Sequence record: PQ821640
DNA: 64,000 nt
Direction: 5' to 3' (one strand)
Source of the DNA: Escherichia phage SD2
Below are positions 36,294 through 41,257 of the stretch, piece after piece. How positions within the stretch are numbered: position 1 is the stretch's first letter; every line of letters begins with the position of its first letter. The position numbers and the translations under genes were made by a program. The notes under the pieces were generated by a model. That model saw nothing but the letters and a program-made list of their open reading frames with translations. It was not told where the DNA came from and searched no databases.

Positions 36294-38453
36294 ATGAAAC
36301 AGGCTATTTTTACTGTAACTCGAAATACGAGAGTAAATGCCAGTTCATTCAGCTATAAGACCGTCGATGGAACGGCGGTCGCTGGTAGAGATTATGTAGC
36401 TAAACAGGGAACAGTAACGTTCCCTTCTGATGCAGATTCTGCTACTGTAGTGGTTGATGTATATGAACGTCCGGCAAACTCTTTAGATCTTTATTTTACT
36501 CTTGAGATTACTAGCATAAGTCAAAATAACATGATGATCAATGAAGAAATTCGTTGTGTTATTACGACTAATCAATCGAATACAACCCCGCTAACTTGGC
36601 CTGTTGTGAAGTCTAGAATGTTTGATCCTAAGTTTTGGACAATAGATTCTCAAGCAACAGAAAGTTGTTCTATTATCTCTAATGGTGATTCTTTCACAGC
36701 AAGAATGGTTAATAGGACAGTGGCTGGTCTTGCTGGGATTATTTGGTCAACTTACGATAAATATGATCACAAAGGATTAGGCTACCAAGAACATTCTGAC
36801 TTAAGTAAAGAGAAACTTTGGTTTAAGATGGAACTTAGTCAAGGTGTTCCTGGATTAAAAGAAGAAAAATTATTGCCATCCTTAACAGTGACACTGAAGG
36901 ATGAAACAGTTCATTATGTATCTCTAAACTTTTATGCAGAAGAAGTTTCAGAGGATGGTAAAACAGCAACAATCAAATTAGATTTCTCAAACTTAAAATC
37001 GGGGCCAGAAAATAATATTGTTGTTGACACTACACAAATAGATAATATGTTCTTCTCCTTGATCTCAACGAGGTATCAAGAAATTGAAGATATTATTCCT
37101 GTGGATAATGTGGATCTTTCCTTTAAGTTTACCATACTGGAGCCTGATACTGGTTACAGTATGATGAATATGGGTAATTTAAATGTTCCAGCACACACCA
37201 TAAGAATGTGTACATCTTATGATGATATGTATAACCTGACCCCAGAGCGAGTTATTTCTAACACCTATAGATTAGGTTATAGGGATATGATTAACCACTA
37301 TAATGGTATGTCACACTATTATCAGTTTAGTTGGGATGCTGGTTCTAATAAATGGGCTTTGAATAGAACAGAATATTTAAACCCAGCAACAGAAGCATGG
37401 TTTGATAATTTCCACGCTAATGCAAAAGCTATGGGCTACACAGTAATGAATTCCTTAAGTTTTGAACTTATGAGTACAGTGTGTCCTGTAGAATGGGTAC
37501 AACATACTTGGAATGATGATCTTGCTGCTACAGGTTATGAGCCACCAAGTTATGTATTATCTCCTTCGATTGATGAAGGGATGAATTATTTACAAGGTGT
37601 GATAAATAAGATAGCCTCTATATCCGCTGCTAATGATCTTCCGGTTATTATTCAGGTTGGTGAACCGTGGTGGTGGTATAACACAGCTACCAATCTACCG
37701 TGTATTTATGATTATACAACCAAAGTTGCATTTAATAATGAAACTGGATTATATGCACAAGATGTTGGTACAGTTAAGAATTATAAAACTGGTACACCAT
37801 ATGATGAATATTATGCATTCCTATCTAAAACATTAGGACTGCGTGTTGCTAAATTTGCAACAGATACTAGATTAGCATATCCTGGAGCAAAAGTTACATT
37901 GTTACCATTTGTGCCATCCATTTTGGGTAATGGTATGATGGAGTTTGTTAACTTCCCTAAAGATTATTATATCCCAGAAAACTTTGACTTTTATTGTTCA
38001 GAATGTTATGACTGGTTGTTGGAAGGTAAGATGGAAAAATCTTTCGACGCTATCACAATACCTAATGAGCAACTAGGTTTTAGTTACGATAAGATACATT
38101 ATCTTGCAGGGTTTGTTCCAGATGCAACTCTAGCACCATTATATGGCTTTGATCCTGAATCAAACTATAGAACATATTTGTGGAAAATGATTATAGGTAA
38201 TATTGTATTGAATGACCAGAAGTTTGTTGGTTTATATCAATACATATGGGCTTACCCACAAATAATGCATGATTCAATAACTGTTCTTAATTCAAAATCC
38301 CAAGTGTTTTATATGGGTAATGTGCCTTTGAATTGCTACTTGCAAGATATCACTCTTAAACAGGTAAATGTTGAGATTGCCACTATAAGTGGAATTACAT
38401 TAGCCACTAAATCTGGAGAAGATTTAGTAACAACACAAAAATTTTATATATAG
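36294..38453 (+). CDS. large tail fibre or baseplate protein with Calx-beta-like N-terminal segment
   Basis: N-terminal DGTAVAGRDYVAKQGTVTF resembles a Calx-beta motif; 719 aa. Confidence 0.35.
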   Translation: MKQAIFTVTRNTRVNASSFSYKTVDGTAVAGRDYVAKQGTVTFPSDADSATVVVDVYERPANSLDLYFTLEITSISQNNMMINEEIRCVITTNQSNTTPLTWPVVKSRMFDPKFWTIDSQATESCSIISNGDSFTARMVNRTVAGLAGIIWSTYDKYDHKGLGYQEHSDLSKEKLWFKMELSQGVPGLKEEKLLPSLTVTLKDETVHYVSLNFYAEEVSEDGKTATIKLDFSNLKSGPENNIVVDTTQIDNMFFSLISTRYQEIEDIIPVDNVDLSFKFTILEPDTGYSMMNMGNLNVPAHTIRMCTSYDDMYNLTPERVISNTYRLGYRDMINHYNGMSHYYQFSWDAGSNKWALNRTEYLNPATEAWFDNFHANAKAMGYTVMNSLSFELMSTVCPVEWVQHTWNDDLAATGYEPPSYVLSPSIDEGMNYLQGVINKIASISAANDLPVIIQVGEPWWWYNTATNLPCIYDYTTKVAFNNETGLYAQDVGTVKNYKTGTPYDEYYAFLSKTLGLRVAKFATDTRLAYPGAKVTLLPFVPSILGNGMMEFVNFPKDYYIPENFDFYCSECYDWLLEGKMEKSFDAITIPNEQLGFSYDKIHYLAGFVPDATLAPLYGFDPESNYRTYLWKMIIGNIVLNDQKFVGLYQYIWAYPQIMHDSITVLNSKSQVFYMGNVPLNCYLQDITLKQVNVEIATISGITLATKSGEDLVTTQKFYI

Positions 38454-38461
38454 GAGTAAAA

Positions 38462-40810
38462 ATGTCAACTACAATTACTAATTTACCCGAAACATCAAAA
38501 GTTAATGATTCTGATTACCTGGTTTTAGACCAACCTGATAAGACTGTTAAAAGCACAGTTTCCAACTTTCTTACTGACACTGGGGTGGTTTTAGCCACCC
38601 AGCTAGAAGATATTTCTGGAGCTACCAAGTATCCAGAACTTCAAATGTCGCGCTGGAGAGATGAAGGTGATGTTCGTGGGTGGGGTGCAAAGGTTGATGG
38701 TGTAACAGATGACTCTGATGCATTGATTGCAGCAATTAACTCTGGTCGTTCTAAATTGATCTTACCAGCAGGACGTTGTGTTATCTCTAAAACTTTAGAG
38801 ATTCCTGCCGGGGTAACTCTTGAAGGGCAGGGTATTGATTATTGGGATACTTGGCGTCCTGATGAAACTCGTTTGTTGAAGAGTTGGGATAAAGGAACCC
38901 ATATTGTAGTAACTGGTACAGGTCTTCGTAATAAGACGTTTGGTAACTTATCTAATGAACGTCCTGTTAAAACTGTATCCGGTACTGTCTGTGAGTTTAC
39001 TAAGTTTACTAATGAAGATGCATCAGGTACTACTCCAGCCACGTTGAAGTCATTCAGTGTAGCTGTGTCTGTAACCCATGCATCCCAGTTAAAGAACTTA
39101 CGTATTCTACTCAATAATGATGGTATTGATGGATATAACGATTTTGTCTCTACAGCTTTGGGTGATGATTGGGACATTGGTCTGCATGTATATGATAGTT
39201 CAGAAGCTGTTGTTGAGAATGTTCAGGTATGCGGTTACTGGAGAGTTGCAGGTACTCTGCTAACAGAGAATGATGGTTCCTTCACTATGATAGGGAATCC
39301 AGAAAGAACTCGATTCAATCGTTTCTTTACTCAGGGTATCCGTGGTCTGTTGATTCGTAATAGTCCACAGATTGATGTAGTTAGTAATACAACTGACTCT
39401 GTTACGTTTAAGAAACAGACCTCTTTACGTATTACTGCAACTAACTCATTCAGAATCCCTGGTAGTGCAACACAATATGTATTCACCGGTTCTACTACTG
39501 ATGGTACTAACATTACTTTGACTGGAGTTACACCAGCATTGCCAGTATCTATTGGGGTTATTCGTTTCCCTAATATTGGGAATAACTTCTCTGGTACTGT
39601 GTTTGAGAATACTGTTACTACAAGTTTTGAACACTCGTCTGGTAAATCATCGGATACACTTGGTCTGCCTGTAGCATTCGCTATGGAGATTGATGGTTAT
39701 CCTATGCGTAACCTTCGCTTCGATAAGTTTAAAGCACAGACTACCTTTGATAAGGGTAATACCCTATTTGGTGATTGCCGTGACATTAAGATTACTTCTT
39801 CTGAATTTGAGAATGGTTTAGTAGTAGCTTATAGCCTTGCAGAGACTCAAGGGTATACAGGTAACCTTCGTCTGTTTGCATCTGATCTTCAGGCATCTAC
39901 TGATACAACTGGATTTAATCCAAGAGATGCATTCTTAGATAATAAACAGATTAAGACAGACTTTACCGATGGTTCCTTTATTTTGAAGAACTGGCGAGAT
40001 ACCAATACACGAATTCAGTTCTCTGATGGTAGTGATGGTATTGTCATGCGAGAAGGAGCAAGTGAAGCATCTCCTGGCGGGTACTATATGTATACCAAGG
40101 ATGGATTACGTTGGCTTTCCCTGAATGGTGTAACCAAAGGAATAGATTTCGCTGTCTCCAACGGCAGTATTAAATATGCTACTGACAACAGTGTGGTATT
40201 TAACTGGTACGGTGCATCTGGAAACATGAACTTTAAAGGTACTATTTCCCCTCTGGTAGATAATTCTAAATCATTGGGTACAGGTACATTCCGTTGGTCA
40301 CAGTTGTTTGCTGGTAGTGGTACTATCAATACATCTGATGCAAGAGAGAAAACAACTCCTCATGCTATTACGGATGATATATTAGATGCTTGGGGTGATG
40401 TATCTATTATTGCTTTCCAATGGCTTAACATGGTTAAAGCTAAAGGTGGTGATAGTGCTCGTTGGCATTTTGGCGTTATTGCTCAACAGGTCAGAGATGC
40501 ATTCAATGCGCATGGTATTGATGGAACCAGATTGGGTCTGCTTTGCTATGACGAATGGGAAGACCAATACGAACCTGTAATGGCTACTCGTGATGTTGTA
40601 ACCCGTATTGAAGTTTCTGAGGGAGTATTCGTAGAAAGAGTCACTCAAGAAGAATATGATACTGGTGAGACTAAGTTAGTTGTTGCAGCAGGTAGTCGTT
40701 GGGGTATTCGTCCAGATCAATGTGCTTGGTTAGAGGCTGCTTACCAACGTAGACGTAGTGATAGAATTGAAGAACGTTTAGCTGCTTTAGAGAAACGTTT
40801 ATCAAATTAA
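38462..40810 (+). CDS. tailspike with pectate-lyase-like beta-helix and C-terminal self-cleaving chaperone domain
   Basis: WGAKVDGVTDDSDALIAAIN motif; C-terminal SDAREK cleavage-site motif followed by a conserved chaperone-like tail ending RLAALEKRL. Confidence 0.65.
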   Translation: MSTTITNLPETSKVNDSDYLVLDQPDKTVKSTVSNFLTDTGVVLATQLEDISGATKYPELQMSRWRDEGDVRGWGAKVDGVTDDSDALIAAINSGRSKLILPAGRCVISKTLEIPAGVTLEGQGIDYWDTWRPDETRLLKSWDKGTHIVVTGTGLRNKTFGNLSNERPVKTVSGTVCEFTKFTNEDASGTTPATLKSFSVAVSVTHASQLKNLRILLNNDGIDGYNDFVSTALGDDWDIGLHVYDSSEAVVENVQVCGYWRVAGTLLTENDGSFTMIGNPERTRFNRFFTQGIRGLLIRNSPQIDVVSNTTDSVTFKKQTSLRITATNSFRIPGSATQYVFTGSTTDGTNITLTGVTPALPVSIGVIRFPNIGNNFSGTVFENTVTTSFEHSSGKSSDTLGLPVAFAMEIDGYPMRNLRFDKFKAQTTFDKGNTLFGDCRDIKITSSEFENGLVVAYSLAETQGYTGNLRLFASDLQASTDTTGFNPRDAFLDNKQIKTDFTDGSFILKNWRDTNTRIQFSDGSDGIVMREGASEASPGGYYMYTKDGLRWLSLNGVTKGIDFAVSNGSIKYATDNSVVFNWYGASGNMNFKGTISPLVDNSKSLGTGTFRWSQLFAGSGTINTSDAREKTTPHAITDDILDAWGDVSIIAFQWLNMVKAKGGDSARWHFGVIAQQVRDAFNAHGIDGTRLGLLCYDEWEDQYEPVMATRDVVTRIEVSEGVFVERVTQEEYDTGETKLVVAAGSRWGIRPDQCAWLEAAYQRRRSDRIEERLAALEKRLSN

Positions 40811-40820
40811 GCAAGCAAGG

Positions 40821-41015
40821 ATGCTTGCTCCTACTAGAAAAATAAAGAGGTACTATAAGGAGACGCAAAGGGCGTATTCCCTACCTGCTGATATTGCCCC
40901 AGGTACTACTGCCATTAGTCTTAGTGCTGCTGTACTTGTGCATTCAGCGGGTTCTGTAGACCTTGGGGAATTAGCTGTATCTCGTGATTTAAAAAGTAAT
41001 GAGAACGCATTATGA
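40821..41015 (+). CDS. hypothetical small protein (64 aa)
   Basis: Short ORF; start overlaps a hairpin. Confidence 0.25.
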   Translation: MLAPTRKIKRYYKETQRAYSLPADIAPGTTAISLSAAVLVHSAGSVDLGELAVSRDLKSNENAL

Positions 41016-41257
41016 GAAAGTTTTTAATCGGAATGTTTTGTACATATCCTGATAATAAAGTCAGCTCTACTAAAGTTTGGAATGCTATTGGTATGATTGT
41101 TATGTCCAGTATGTTTATTTATTTGGGAATTGATAAAGAAATTCCTGAATGGATGGGCTGGGCTTTTGTTTTTATGATCACACCATCCAGACTAATGAAG
41201 AATTTAATAGATTTACGTTGGGGTAGATCACCTGCCCCTGATAAGGAGGATAACTAA
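41012..41257 (+). CDS. holin-like small membrane protein (81 aa)
   Basis: Two hydrophobic segments (VWNAIGMIVMSSMFIYLGI and WMGWAFVFMITP) and charged C-terminus. Confidence 0.35.
   Translation: MRKFLIGMFCTYPDNKVSSTKVWNAIGMIVMSSMFIYLGIDKEIPEWMGWAFVFMITPSRLMKNLIDLRWGRSPAPDKEDN

What the first reader, a model, noticed from the sequence alone, without database searches (positions are those of the whole stretch)
38462..40810. Tailspike with predicted self-cleaving C-terminal chaperone (SDAREK site)
The 782-aa beta-helix protein ends with a domain containing TINTSDAREKTTPH and a conserved tail ending RLAALEKRL, the hallmark of intramolecular chaperone domains that trimerise the fibre and then cleave themselves off at the serine. 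The mature virion protein would then be about 150 residues shorter than the gene product.
Basis: partly seen in the sequence, partly recalled or inferred. Interest (0 to 1): 0.45.

Follow-up and report, generated by a model that had tools for sequence, protein, structure and literature searches.

The report
Tailspike with self-cleaving chaperone domain

Summary
Window 38462-40810 (+) is an intact 782-aa ORF with a good ribosome-binding site. Residues 625-782 match Pfam Peptidase_S74 (49.5 bits against a cutoff of 22) and the solved K1F endosialidase chaperone domain (3GW6, E 1.5e-36).

All three residues shown in the K1F enzyme to drive autocleavage are present: S625 (= S911), K630 (= K916) and the stalk arginine R611 (= R897). 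S625 and K630 are invariant in 57 homologues.

The window is a phi92-like myovirus, about 98% identical to phi92 in the flanks. The gene sits in the phi92 gp143 slot. The phi92 record annotates cleavage at TGTINT|SDGTLKT, and this protein has GSGTINT|SDAREKT. The predicted products are therefore a 624-aa mature spike and a 158-aa released domain.

The part that differs from phi92 is the middle. From about residue 71 to 45 nt past the stop codon, the endosialidase has been replaced by a right-handed beta-helix cassette. No deposited phage carries this cassette at more than 59% protein identity. The same beta-helix is joined elsewhere to at least five other N-terminal anchors and to several S74 subtypes.

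Cleavage itself is inferred, not shown. Verdict: correct reading, a new member of a known kind, low interest.

The parts
38452..38456 (+). Shine-Dalgarno AGGAG, 5 nt upstream of the ATG. It overlaps the TAG stop (38451-38453) of the upstream gp142-like gene.
   Evidence: Read directly. The phi92 record annotates the same AGGAG as the ribosome-binding site of gene 143.
38462..40810 (+). Tailspike precursor gene, 782 aa plus stop. It is the positional counterpart of phi92 gene 143.
   Evidence: ORF; phrog_1171 tail spike protein, E 6.9e-149; synteny with phi92.
38462..38671 (+). N-terminal anchor (aa 1-70), shared with gp143-slot proteins of phi92-like phages. Presumed to attach the spike to the baseplate-associated fibre scaffold.
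   Evidence: 80 phage records share the first 224-260 nt at 90-96% identity and nothing beyond. Protein alignment with phi92 gp143 and the DE16 allele. The DNA is identical to phi92 up to 38671. The attachment function is inferred.
38630..38722 (+). Conserved junction motif YPELQMSRWRDEGDVRGWGAKVDGVTDDSDA (aa 57-87). The left recombination border lies inside it, at about 38672-38721.
   Evidence: Similarity to phi92 decays from 38672 and ends at 38721. The motif is 74-90% identical in homologues whose N-termini are otherwise unrelated. It is also present in K1F endosialidase and in 9VVR. A conserved DNA motif at the end of tailspike anchor domains is described in PMC10408124.
38663..40213 (+). 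Right-handed beta-helix body (aa ~68-584): receptor-binding module and putative polysaccharide depolymerase, substrate unknown.
   Evidence: AF2 model pLDDT mostly above 90. Foldseek hits to GH110 and GH28 enzymes, alginate epimerases, and the CBA120, Det7 and phiAB6 tailspikes. PF12708 is sub-threshold at 23.5 bits. Invariant acidic residues in 57 homologues: D238, E281, E409, E450. Enzymatic activity is inferred.
40214..40333 (+). Stalk segment (aa 585-624), homologous to the triple-beta-helix stalk that precedes the cleavage site in K1F endosialidase. It contains R611 (nt 40292-40294), the counterpart of K1F R897.
   Evidence: Aligned to 3GW6 from aa 588 and to K1F 874-910 and phi92. PF12219 C-terminal end, aa 583-624, E 0.0068, below cutoff. 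G606 is invariant and R611 is present in 35 of 57 homologues. pLDDT is below 50 for aa 602-624 in the monomer model.
40331..40336 (+). Predicted scissile bond T624|S625 (codons ACx-TCx of ...GTINT|SDAREK...).
   Evidence: The phi92 mat_peptide boundary falls at the same TINT|SD. The 3GUD chain begins at the residue aligned to S625. S625 is invariant and T624 is present in 54 of 57 homologues.
40349..40351 (+). K630, predicted general base of the Ser-Lys dyad (= K1F K916).
   Evidence: Counted from the K1F gene 17 translation in alignment A2. Invariant in 57 of 57 homologues.
40334..40807 (+). Intramolecular chaperone / autocleavage domain (Peptidase_S74), aa 625-782, 158 aa. Predicted to be released after trimer assembly.
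   Evidence: dN/dS is 0.07 for aa 585-772 against the 96%-identical allele P0001, from small counts of 8 synonymous and 2 non-synonymous changes.
40712..40804 (+). C-terminal alpha-helix (aa 751-781, ...AWLEAAYQRRRSDRIEERLAALEKRLS), the counterpart of the helix that forms the trimeric coiled coil in solved ICA domains.
   Evidence: DSSP on the model gives H751-781. It aligns with K1F ...AAYQRRKLERIEARLSALEQK and phi92 ...MAYQRKKLKALEERLATLESK. The coiled-coil role comes from PMC8326128.
40810..40854 (+). Right border of the swapped cassette. It includes a perfect 8-bp hairpin, AGCAAGCA-AGGA-TGCTTGCT (40810-40829).
   Evidence: Homology to other Stephanstirmvirinae genomes resumes at about 40855 and to phi92 at 41030. 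The hairpin is unique in the window, with 0 expected by chance.

Best explanation
The gene encodes the precursor of one of the exchangeable tailspikes of a phi92-like (Stephanstirmvirinae) E. coli myovirus. It has four modules:
1. an N-terminal anchor (aa 1-~70) shared with phi92 gp143;
2. a right-handed beta-helix receptor-binding body, probably a depolymerase (aa ~68-584);
3. a short stalk homologous to the endosialidase triple-beta-helix (aa 585-624);
4. a C-terminal Peptidase_S74 intramolecular chaperone domain (aa 625-782).

Proposed mechanism:
- Three nascent chains are brought into register by the C-terminal domains, whose last helices form a coiled coil.
- This nucleates folding of the intertwined stalk and hence of the trimeric spike.
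- Only when the stalk is correctly folded is R611 placed next to the S625/K630 dyad.
- K630 then activates S625, which attacks the T624-S625 peptide bond.

What is shown here: the domain, its position, the catalytic residues, the predicted fold and the synteny. What is inferred from the K1F, phi92, Bacillus phage gp12, T5 and MYRF homologues: trimerisation, chaperone dependence and cleavage.

In evolutionary terms, the region from about aa 71 to 45 nt past the stop codon is a horizontally exchanged cassette that replaced the endosialidase found at this position in phi92.
For: **Domain and catalytic residues**
- PF13884 at 49.5 bits against a cutoff of 22.
- 3GW6 E 1.5e-36; 3GUD starts at S625; 4UW8, 7Y5S and 6EU4 also match.
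- S625 = S911, K630 = K916 and R611 = R897, by direct counting in the K1F alignment. The roles of these residues come from PMC3742443 and PMC8326128.
- S625, K630, G671 and Q675 are invariant, and D626 and H669 at least 95% conserved, in 57 homologues.

**Cleavage site and structure**
- The phi92 record annotates mature endoN92* and endoN92-CTD with the boundary at TINT|SD.
- The AF2 model gives pLDDT 82-92 for aa 630-782. Foldseek's top hits are 3GW6 (E 1.5e-12) and 3GUD (TM 0.82 on the target).

**Genomic context and selection**
- The flanks are 96.8-98.5% identical to phi92, with the break inside the gene.
- The 96%-identical allele P0001 lies in the same slot of another phi92-like contig. 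Against it, dN/dS is 0.19 overall and 0.07 in the stalk plus CTD.

**Modularity**
- The same beta-helix is found behind Tail_spike_N, P22 Head_binding, T7 tail-fibre N-terminal and tail-collar fibre anchors.
Against: No experiment on this protein exists.

The monomer model cannot form the trimeric stalk (pLDDT below 50 at aa 602-624). The geometry of R611, S625 and K630 was therefore not checked.

Enzymatic activity of the beta-helix is unsupported by any above-threshold family match: PF12708 scores 23.5 bits against a cutoff of 27, and there is no NCBIfam hit.

In 21 of 57 homologues the R611 position is Pro, so that arginine is not universal in the family. This protein, however, has the K1F-type residue.
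Confidence: 0.88

Rival explanations
1. The S74 domain is present but is not cleaved in this protein. It stays on the mature spike, for example as a distal tip or binding module.
For: Cleavage was not observed here. The stalk region could not be modelled. In the eukaryotic homologue MYRF, the requirements for cleavage differ from those of the phage proteins (PMC8326128).
Against: All three residues needed in K1F endosialidase are conserved. The dyad is invariant in 57 homologues. The cleavage context TINT|SD is identical to that annotated in phi92 gp143, the protein in the same slot. Strong purifying selection acts on the domain.
Confidence: 0.07
2. The protein is an endosialidase, as the same-slot genes of many relatives are annotated ("endo-N-acetylneuraminidase").
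For: Records such as nepoznato, ESCO5 and vB_EcoM_REC carry that label for the gene whose first 250 nt match. There is a weak PF12219 End_tail_spike hit.
Against: The similarity to those genes is confined to the N-terminal anchor and the stalk plus CTD. The PF12219 hit covers only the last 42 positions of the profile, which is the stalk, and is below cutoff. No sialidase beta-propeller families match, whereas PF12217, PF12218 and PF12195 are present in the phAPEC8 allele P0089. The body is modelled as a beta-helix.
Confidence: 0.01
3. The beta-helix body only binds a surface glycan and has no depolymerase activity, so the protein is a non-enzymatic spike. The chaperone and cleavage part is unaffected.
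For: No catalytic family reaches its curated threshold. The substrate and catalytic residues are unidentified.
Against: Fold matches are dominated by glycoside hydrolases, lyases and enzymatically active tailspikes. Several acidic residues are invariant across homologues down to 30% identity (D238, E281, E409, E450). Beta-helical tailspikes are generally enzymatic (PMC10408124).
Confidence: 0.15

Closest known systems
phi92 gp143 (endosialidase 92 precursor; endoN92* plus endoN92-CTD), Escherichia phage phi92, FR775895.2
   Same: - Same genomic slot between the gp142 and gp144/145 homologues, with flanks 97-98% identical.
- Same N-terminal anchor, aa 1-70.
- Same type of stalk and S74 C-terminal domain, 46% identical over the last ~200 aa.
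- Same cleavage context, TINT|SD.
   Different: The catalytic and receptor-binding body is unrelated: a beta-helix here against a sialidase beta-propeller in gp143. This protein is 782 aa against 918. The C-terminal domain is a different allele with no DNA-level match, so it arrived with the cassette rather than being retained.
K1F endosialidase (endoNF) C-terminal intramolecular chaperone, PDB 3GW6
   Same: - 41% identity over the stalk plus CTD.
- S911/K916/R897 correspond to S625/K630/R611.
- A long beta-hairpin region (aa ~694-749) and a terminal helix are present.
- Top Foldseek hit.
   Different: The client domain differs (beta-helix against beta-propeller plus beta-barrel). A 5-residue deletion follows the HG(I/L) helix, and the hairpin region has different sequence.
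Bacillus phage phi29/GA-1 neck appendage gp12 chaperone domain (PDB 3GUD) and T5 L-shaped tail fibre pb1 (PDB 4UW8)
   Same: S74 domains that follow a beta-helical or fibrous client and are released by cleavage before the conserved Ser. The 3GUD chain begins at the residue aligned with S625. TM-score is 0.82 on the target.
   Different: More distant in sequence (E 1e-17 and 2e-13), and they lack the long endosialidase-type hairpin insertion.
Uncharacterised tailspikes and prophage tail fibres sharing the beta-helix (P0001-P0090; KM389360.1 Phi05_1387 B; Vectrevirus DIJ06P1 OZ035817.1)
   Same: Beta-helix 39-95% identical, and an S74 domain in every one of the 57 aligned homologues. P0001 is 96% identical and sits in the same phi92-like slot.
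   Different: They carry different N-terminal anchors: Tail_spike_N, P22 Head_binding, T7 tail-fibre N-terminal and tail-collar fibre. They also carry different S74 subtypes. CTD identity is uncoupled from helix identity, for example P0003 at 82% and 39% against P0014 at 62% and 75%. None has a known substrate.

Membership tests
Peptidase_S74 / intramolecular chaperone auto-processing (ICA) domain (Pfam PF13884) | Match to the family HMM above the curated gathering score | tested here: met
   49.5 bits against a cutoff of 22, E 5.3e-13, aa 625-685 covering profile positions 1-57 of 58.
Peptidase_S74 / intramolecular chaperone auto-processing (ICA) domain (Pfam PF13884) | Nucleophilic Ser at the first residue of the domain, aligned with endoNF S911 | tested here: met
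   S625 aligns with K1F S911 (counted from the gene 17 translation) and with the first residue of phi92 endoN92-CTD and of 3GUD. Invariant in 57 of 57 homologues.
Peptidase_S74 / intramolecular chaperone auto-processing (ICA) domain (Pfam PF13884) | General-base Lys five residues after the Ser (endoNF K916) | tested here: met
   K630, invariant in 57 of 57 homologues. The dyad is defined in PMC3742443 and PMC8326128.
Peptidase_S74 / intramolecular chaperone auto-processing (ICA) domain (Pfam PF13884) | Phage-type stalk arginine that completes the active site only after stalk folding (endoNF R897) | tested here: met
   R611 aligns with K1F R897. It is Arg in 35 of 57 homologues and Pro in 21. 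Its spatial position was not checked because the monomer model is unreliable there.
Peptidase_S74 / intramolecular chaperone auto-processing (ICA) domain (Pfam PF13884) | ICA fold: short helices, beta-hairpin 'tentacle', long C-terminal helix for a trimeric coiled coil | tested here: met
   The model has H638-645, H655-661, H674-683, strands 694-749 and H751-781 at pLDDT 82-92. Foldseek gives 3GW6 at E 1.5e-12 and 3GUD at TM 0.82 on the target.
Peptidase_S74 / intramolecular chaperone auto-processing (ICA) domain (Pfam PF13884) | Located at the C-terminus of a trimeric fibre or spike, directly after a triple-beta-helix stalk | tested here: inconclusive
   The C-terminal position is met. Aa 588-624 are homologous to the K1F stalk. 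The triple-beta-helix itself could not be modelled from one chain (pLDDT below 50 at aa 602-624).
Peptidase_S74 / intramolecular chaperone auto-processing (ICA) domain (Pfam PF13884) | Trimerisation-dependent autoproteolysis and release of the domain; misfolding when the domain is deleted | not testable with these tools
   Needs expression with SDS-PAGE or mass spectrometry, S625A/K630A mutants and a construct ending at T624.
phi92 gp143-slot tailspike of Stephanstirmvirinae | Synteny (between the gp142 and gp144/gp145 homologues) and the shared N-terminal anchor | tested here: met
   80 phage records share the first 224-260 nt.
Endosialidase (endo-N-acetylneuraminidase) | Sialidase beta-propeller catalytic domain with its N-terminal and beta-barrel domains (PF12217, PF12218, PF12195) | tested here: not met
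   None of these families matches. They are present in the phAPEC8 allele P0089. The body is a beta-helix.
Pectate-lyase-like right-handed beta-helix depolymerase (PF12708 / GH28-related) | HMM match above cutoff; parallel beta-helix fold; catalytic acidic residues | tested here: inconclusive
   The HMM scores 23.5 bits, below the cutoff of 27, and covers only aa 71-126. The fold is supported. Invariant acidic residues exist but were not mapped to a known active site.

The most novel reading that the evidence does not exclude
The beta-helix cassette may be a depolymerase with a glycan specificity (an E. coli capsule or O-antigen type) not yet assigned to any characterised phage enzyme. It has been newly installed in the phi92 'Swiss-army-knife' backbone. 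Its free recombination with different S74 subtypes at the conserved ...GTINT|SD... joint would imply that the chaperone acts only on the generic stalk and is indifferent to the client body.
Probability: 0.4. Interest if true: 0.3.

Novelty: new member of a known kind. Interest (0 to 1): 0.15.

Why it matters
For annotation and proteomics, the virion protein should be searched for as a 624-residue chain ending at T624, not as the 782-residue gene product. Recombinant production of the spike should keep the C-terminal domain in the construct.

For phage biology, this is one more clean example of receptor-binding cassette exchange in the multivalent phi92-type adsorption apparatus. The borders fall in conserved motifs. 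It also warns that "endo-N-acetylneuraminidase" labels on same-slot genes are often inherited from the shared anchor and chaperone, not from the catalytic body. It does not open a new question.

Tried and rejected
- **Origin of the cassette.** Megablast of the cassette against 5,426 complete E. coli genomes found nothing. An exact-sequence look-up of the protein in the 15-billion-protein collection also found nothing. No donor could be named.
- **Substrate.** Searches for the nearest named relatives (DIJ06P1, 9VVR) in the paper library returned nothing. NCBIfam gave no hit. BFVD fold matches carry only generic names. 9VVR shares only the junction motif and the stalk plus CTD, not the beta-helix. 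The substrate remains unknown.
- **Primary phi92 paper.** The Schwarzer et al. 2012 paper (PMC3457257) is not held. The phi92 cleavage evidence therefore rests on the GenBank mat_peptide annotation.
- **Hairpin after the stop codon.** It was tested as a recurring motif. It is unique in the window and absent from the four fetched loci. On the + strand it has no T-run, so it was not called as a terminator.
- **Composition.** The cassette is 40.3% GC against 37.5% in the flanks, and GC3 is 0.267 against 0.21-0.28. This gives no sign of a foreign origin.
- **Other S74 domains.** A second S74 domain was sought among the 137 open (stop-to-stop) reading frames of at least 80 aa in the window. None was found.
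- **Antisense ORFs.** The ORFs inside the gene on the opposite strand (60-112 aa) were not pursued. They lie within a coding region under purifying selection.
Full report
**1. The observation**

Window 38462-40810 on the + strand is a single open reading frame of 782 codons plus stop. An AGGAG ribosome-binding site lies 5 nt before the ATG and overlaps the stop codon of the preceding gene.

**2. What the C-terminus is**

- Pfam places Peptidase_S74 ("chaperone of endosialidase") at aa 625-685. The score is 49.5 bits against a gathering cutoff of 22, E 5.3e-13.
- Against the sequences of solved structures, the last ~200 residues match several entries:
  - the K1F endosialidase intramolecular chaperone, 3GW6, E 1.5e-36, aa 588-778;
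  - the Bacillus phage neck appendage gp12 chaperone, 3GUD, whose crystallised released fragment starts exactly at the residue aligned with S625;
  - the T5 L-shaped tail fibre, 4UW8;
  - three further tail spikes or fibres (9VVR, 7Y5S, 6EU4).
- I translated K1F gene 17 from its GenBank record and counted residues in a three-way alignment. This gives S625 = K1F S911, K630 = K1F K916 and R611 = K1F R897.
- According to PMC3742443 and PMC8326128, S911/K916 are the catalytic dyad. R897, in the triple-beta-helix stalk, is needed for cleavage, so that cleavage only happens after correct trimer folding.
- In an alignment of 57 homologues spanning 30-96% identity, S625, K630, G671 and Q675 are invariant, and T624, D626 and H669 are nearly so. 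R611 is Arg in 35 and Pro in 21.

**3. Structure**

An AlphaFold2 monomer model built on that alignment has a mean pLDDT of 85.
- aa 68-600: a strand ladder typical of a right-handed beta-helix, pLDDT mostly above 90.
- aa 602-624: below 50. This is expected for a segment that exists only as an intertwined trimer.
- aa 630-782: three short helices, a long beta-hairpin region (694-749) and a 31-residue terminal helix (751-781), pLDDT 82-92.

Foldseek against the PDB ranks 3GW6 first (E 1.5e-12). It finds 3GUD with TM 0.82 on the target, and also 4UW8. The body matches GH110 and GH28 enzymes, alginate epimerases, and the Det7, CBA120 and phiAB6 tailspikes. BFVD hits are tailspikes named "Peptidase S74 domain-containing", "Lyase" and "Pectate lyase superfamily".

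**4. Genomic context**

The 20 kb around the gene is 98% identical to phi92 and its relatives (Stephanstirmvirinae: Justusliebigvirus and Phapecoctavirus), except for a gap at this gene.
- The neighbours are the homologues of phi92 gp141, gp142, gp144, gp145 and gp146.
- The gene occupies the slot of phi92 gene 143. The GenBank record annotates that gene as a precursor processed into "proteolytically matured endosialidase 92*" and [quoted passage not shown].
- Translating across the annotated boundary gives ...STGTINT|SDGTLKT.... The window protein reads ...GSGTINT|SDAREKT...
- The predicted products are therefore aa 1-624 (mature chain) and aa 625-782 (a 158-aa released domain).

**5. What differs from phi92**

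- DNA identity with phi92 is perfect up to 38671. It decays within the codons for the motif WRDEGD-V-RGWGAKVDGVTDD and is lost after 38721.
- Identity returns at 41030 relative to phi92, but already at about 40855 relative to many other members of the subfamily.
- 80 phage records share the first 224-260 nt and nothing else.
- No record among 50,697 phage genomes has the body at more than 59% protein identity. The exact protein is not in the 15-billion-protein collection.
- A 96%-identical allele, P0001, lies in the same slot of a short phi92-like metagenomic contig. Against it, dN/dS is 0.19 overall and 0.07 in the stalk plus chaperone, as expected for a functional gene.
- No endosialidase catalytic families are detected, so the "endo-N-acetylneuraminidase" label carried by same-slot genes in several relatives does not apply here.

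**6. Modularity**

- Homologues of the beta-helix are joined to at least five other kinds of N-terminus. Four are recognisable anchors: Tail_spike_N, P22 Head_binding, the T7 tail-fibre N-terminus and the tail-collar fibre domain. The fifth is a head-tail connector fusion that is probably an artefact.
- The 31-residue junction motif (aa 57-87) is 74-90% identical in proteins whose N-termini are otherwise unrelated. This fits the conserved recombination motif at the end of anchor domains reported in PMC10408124.
- Identity in the chaperone domain is uncoupled from identity in the helix. P0003 has 82% in the helix and 39% in the CTD. P0014-P0017 have about 62% and 75%. The chaperone is therefore itself exchangeable at the conserved ...GTINT|SD... 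joint.
- Other alleles of the same phi92-type slot have no S74 domain at all (P0098, P0099, P0108, P0117). The chaperone travels with the cassette and is not a fixed property of the slot.

**7. Mechanism, with the status of each step**

- Shown here: domain identity, position, catalytic residues, predicted fold, synteny and purifying selection.
- Inferred from characterised homologues (K1F, phi92, Bacillus phage gp12, T5, MYRF):
  - the C-terminal domains trimerise through their terminal helices;
  - they nucleate the intertwined stalk;
  - R611 completes the S625/K630 site only in the folded trimer;
  - the T624-S625 bond is cut and the 158-aa domain leaves, giving a kinetically stable mature spike.
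- Depolymerase activity of the beta-helix is inferred from the fold only. The substrate is unknown.

**8. Verdict**

S74 intramolecular chaperone domains are a curated Pfam family, are annotated automatically, and are documented for the protein in this very slot in phi92. This is a new member of a known kind, a previously undeposited receptor-binding cassette with a standard chaperone, and it deserves a low interest score.

Noticed in passing
window 40821-41015 (+): A 64-aa ORF whose stop overlaps the start of the gp144 homologue (ATGA at 41012). Its last 53 aa are 96% identical to the C-terminal half of a 102-aa hypothetical protein of phage vB_EcoM_DE16 (L004:3353-3661). phi92 lacks this piece. 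It looks like a small gene truncated at its 5' end, left at the right border of the swapped cassette.
   Followed up: partly
window 40810-40829: A perfect hairpin, AGCAAGCA-AGGA-TGCTTGCT, overlaps the stop codon of the tailspike gene. It is unique in the window and has no T-run on the + strand. PMC10408124 reports a ~20-nt terminator-like motif downstream of exchangeable tailspike genes in Justusliebigvirus and other genera. I did not compare the sequences.
   Followed up: partly
window 41012-41257 versus L001:10806-11072: The gp144 homologue is 81 aa here against 88 aa in phi92. Homology to phi92 starts only at 41030, so its first ~6 codons differ from those of phi92 gp144.
   Followed up: no
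P0029 (826 aa, Logan contig): A head-to-tail connector domain (PF12236, 353 bits) is fused directly to this tailspike body and S74 domain. It is probably a gene-call or assembly fusion in a podovirus contig rather than a real protein.
   Followed up: no
L003 (Logan ERR14760434 contig, 2557 nt), gene 197-2557: The 96%-identical allele P0001 ends ...RLTALEKRLTALEKR at the contig edge with no stop codon. That is a duplicated heptad-like unit relative to the window's ...RLAALEKRLSN. It could be real or an assembly-end artefact.
   Followed up: no
P0030, P0031, P0032 (homologues of the beta-helix): These carry the same beta-helix joined to clearly different, shorter S74-type ends (...GTISTSDETLKT......SSSDSRLKK...). 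The precomputed Pfam list does not flag them as PF13884, so the family is under-called in the database.
   Followed up: partly
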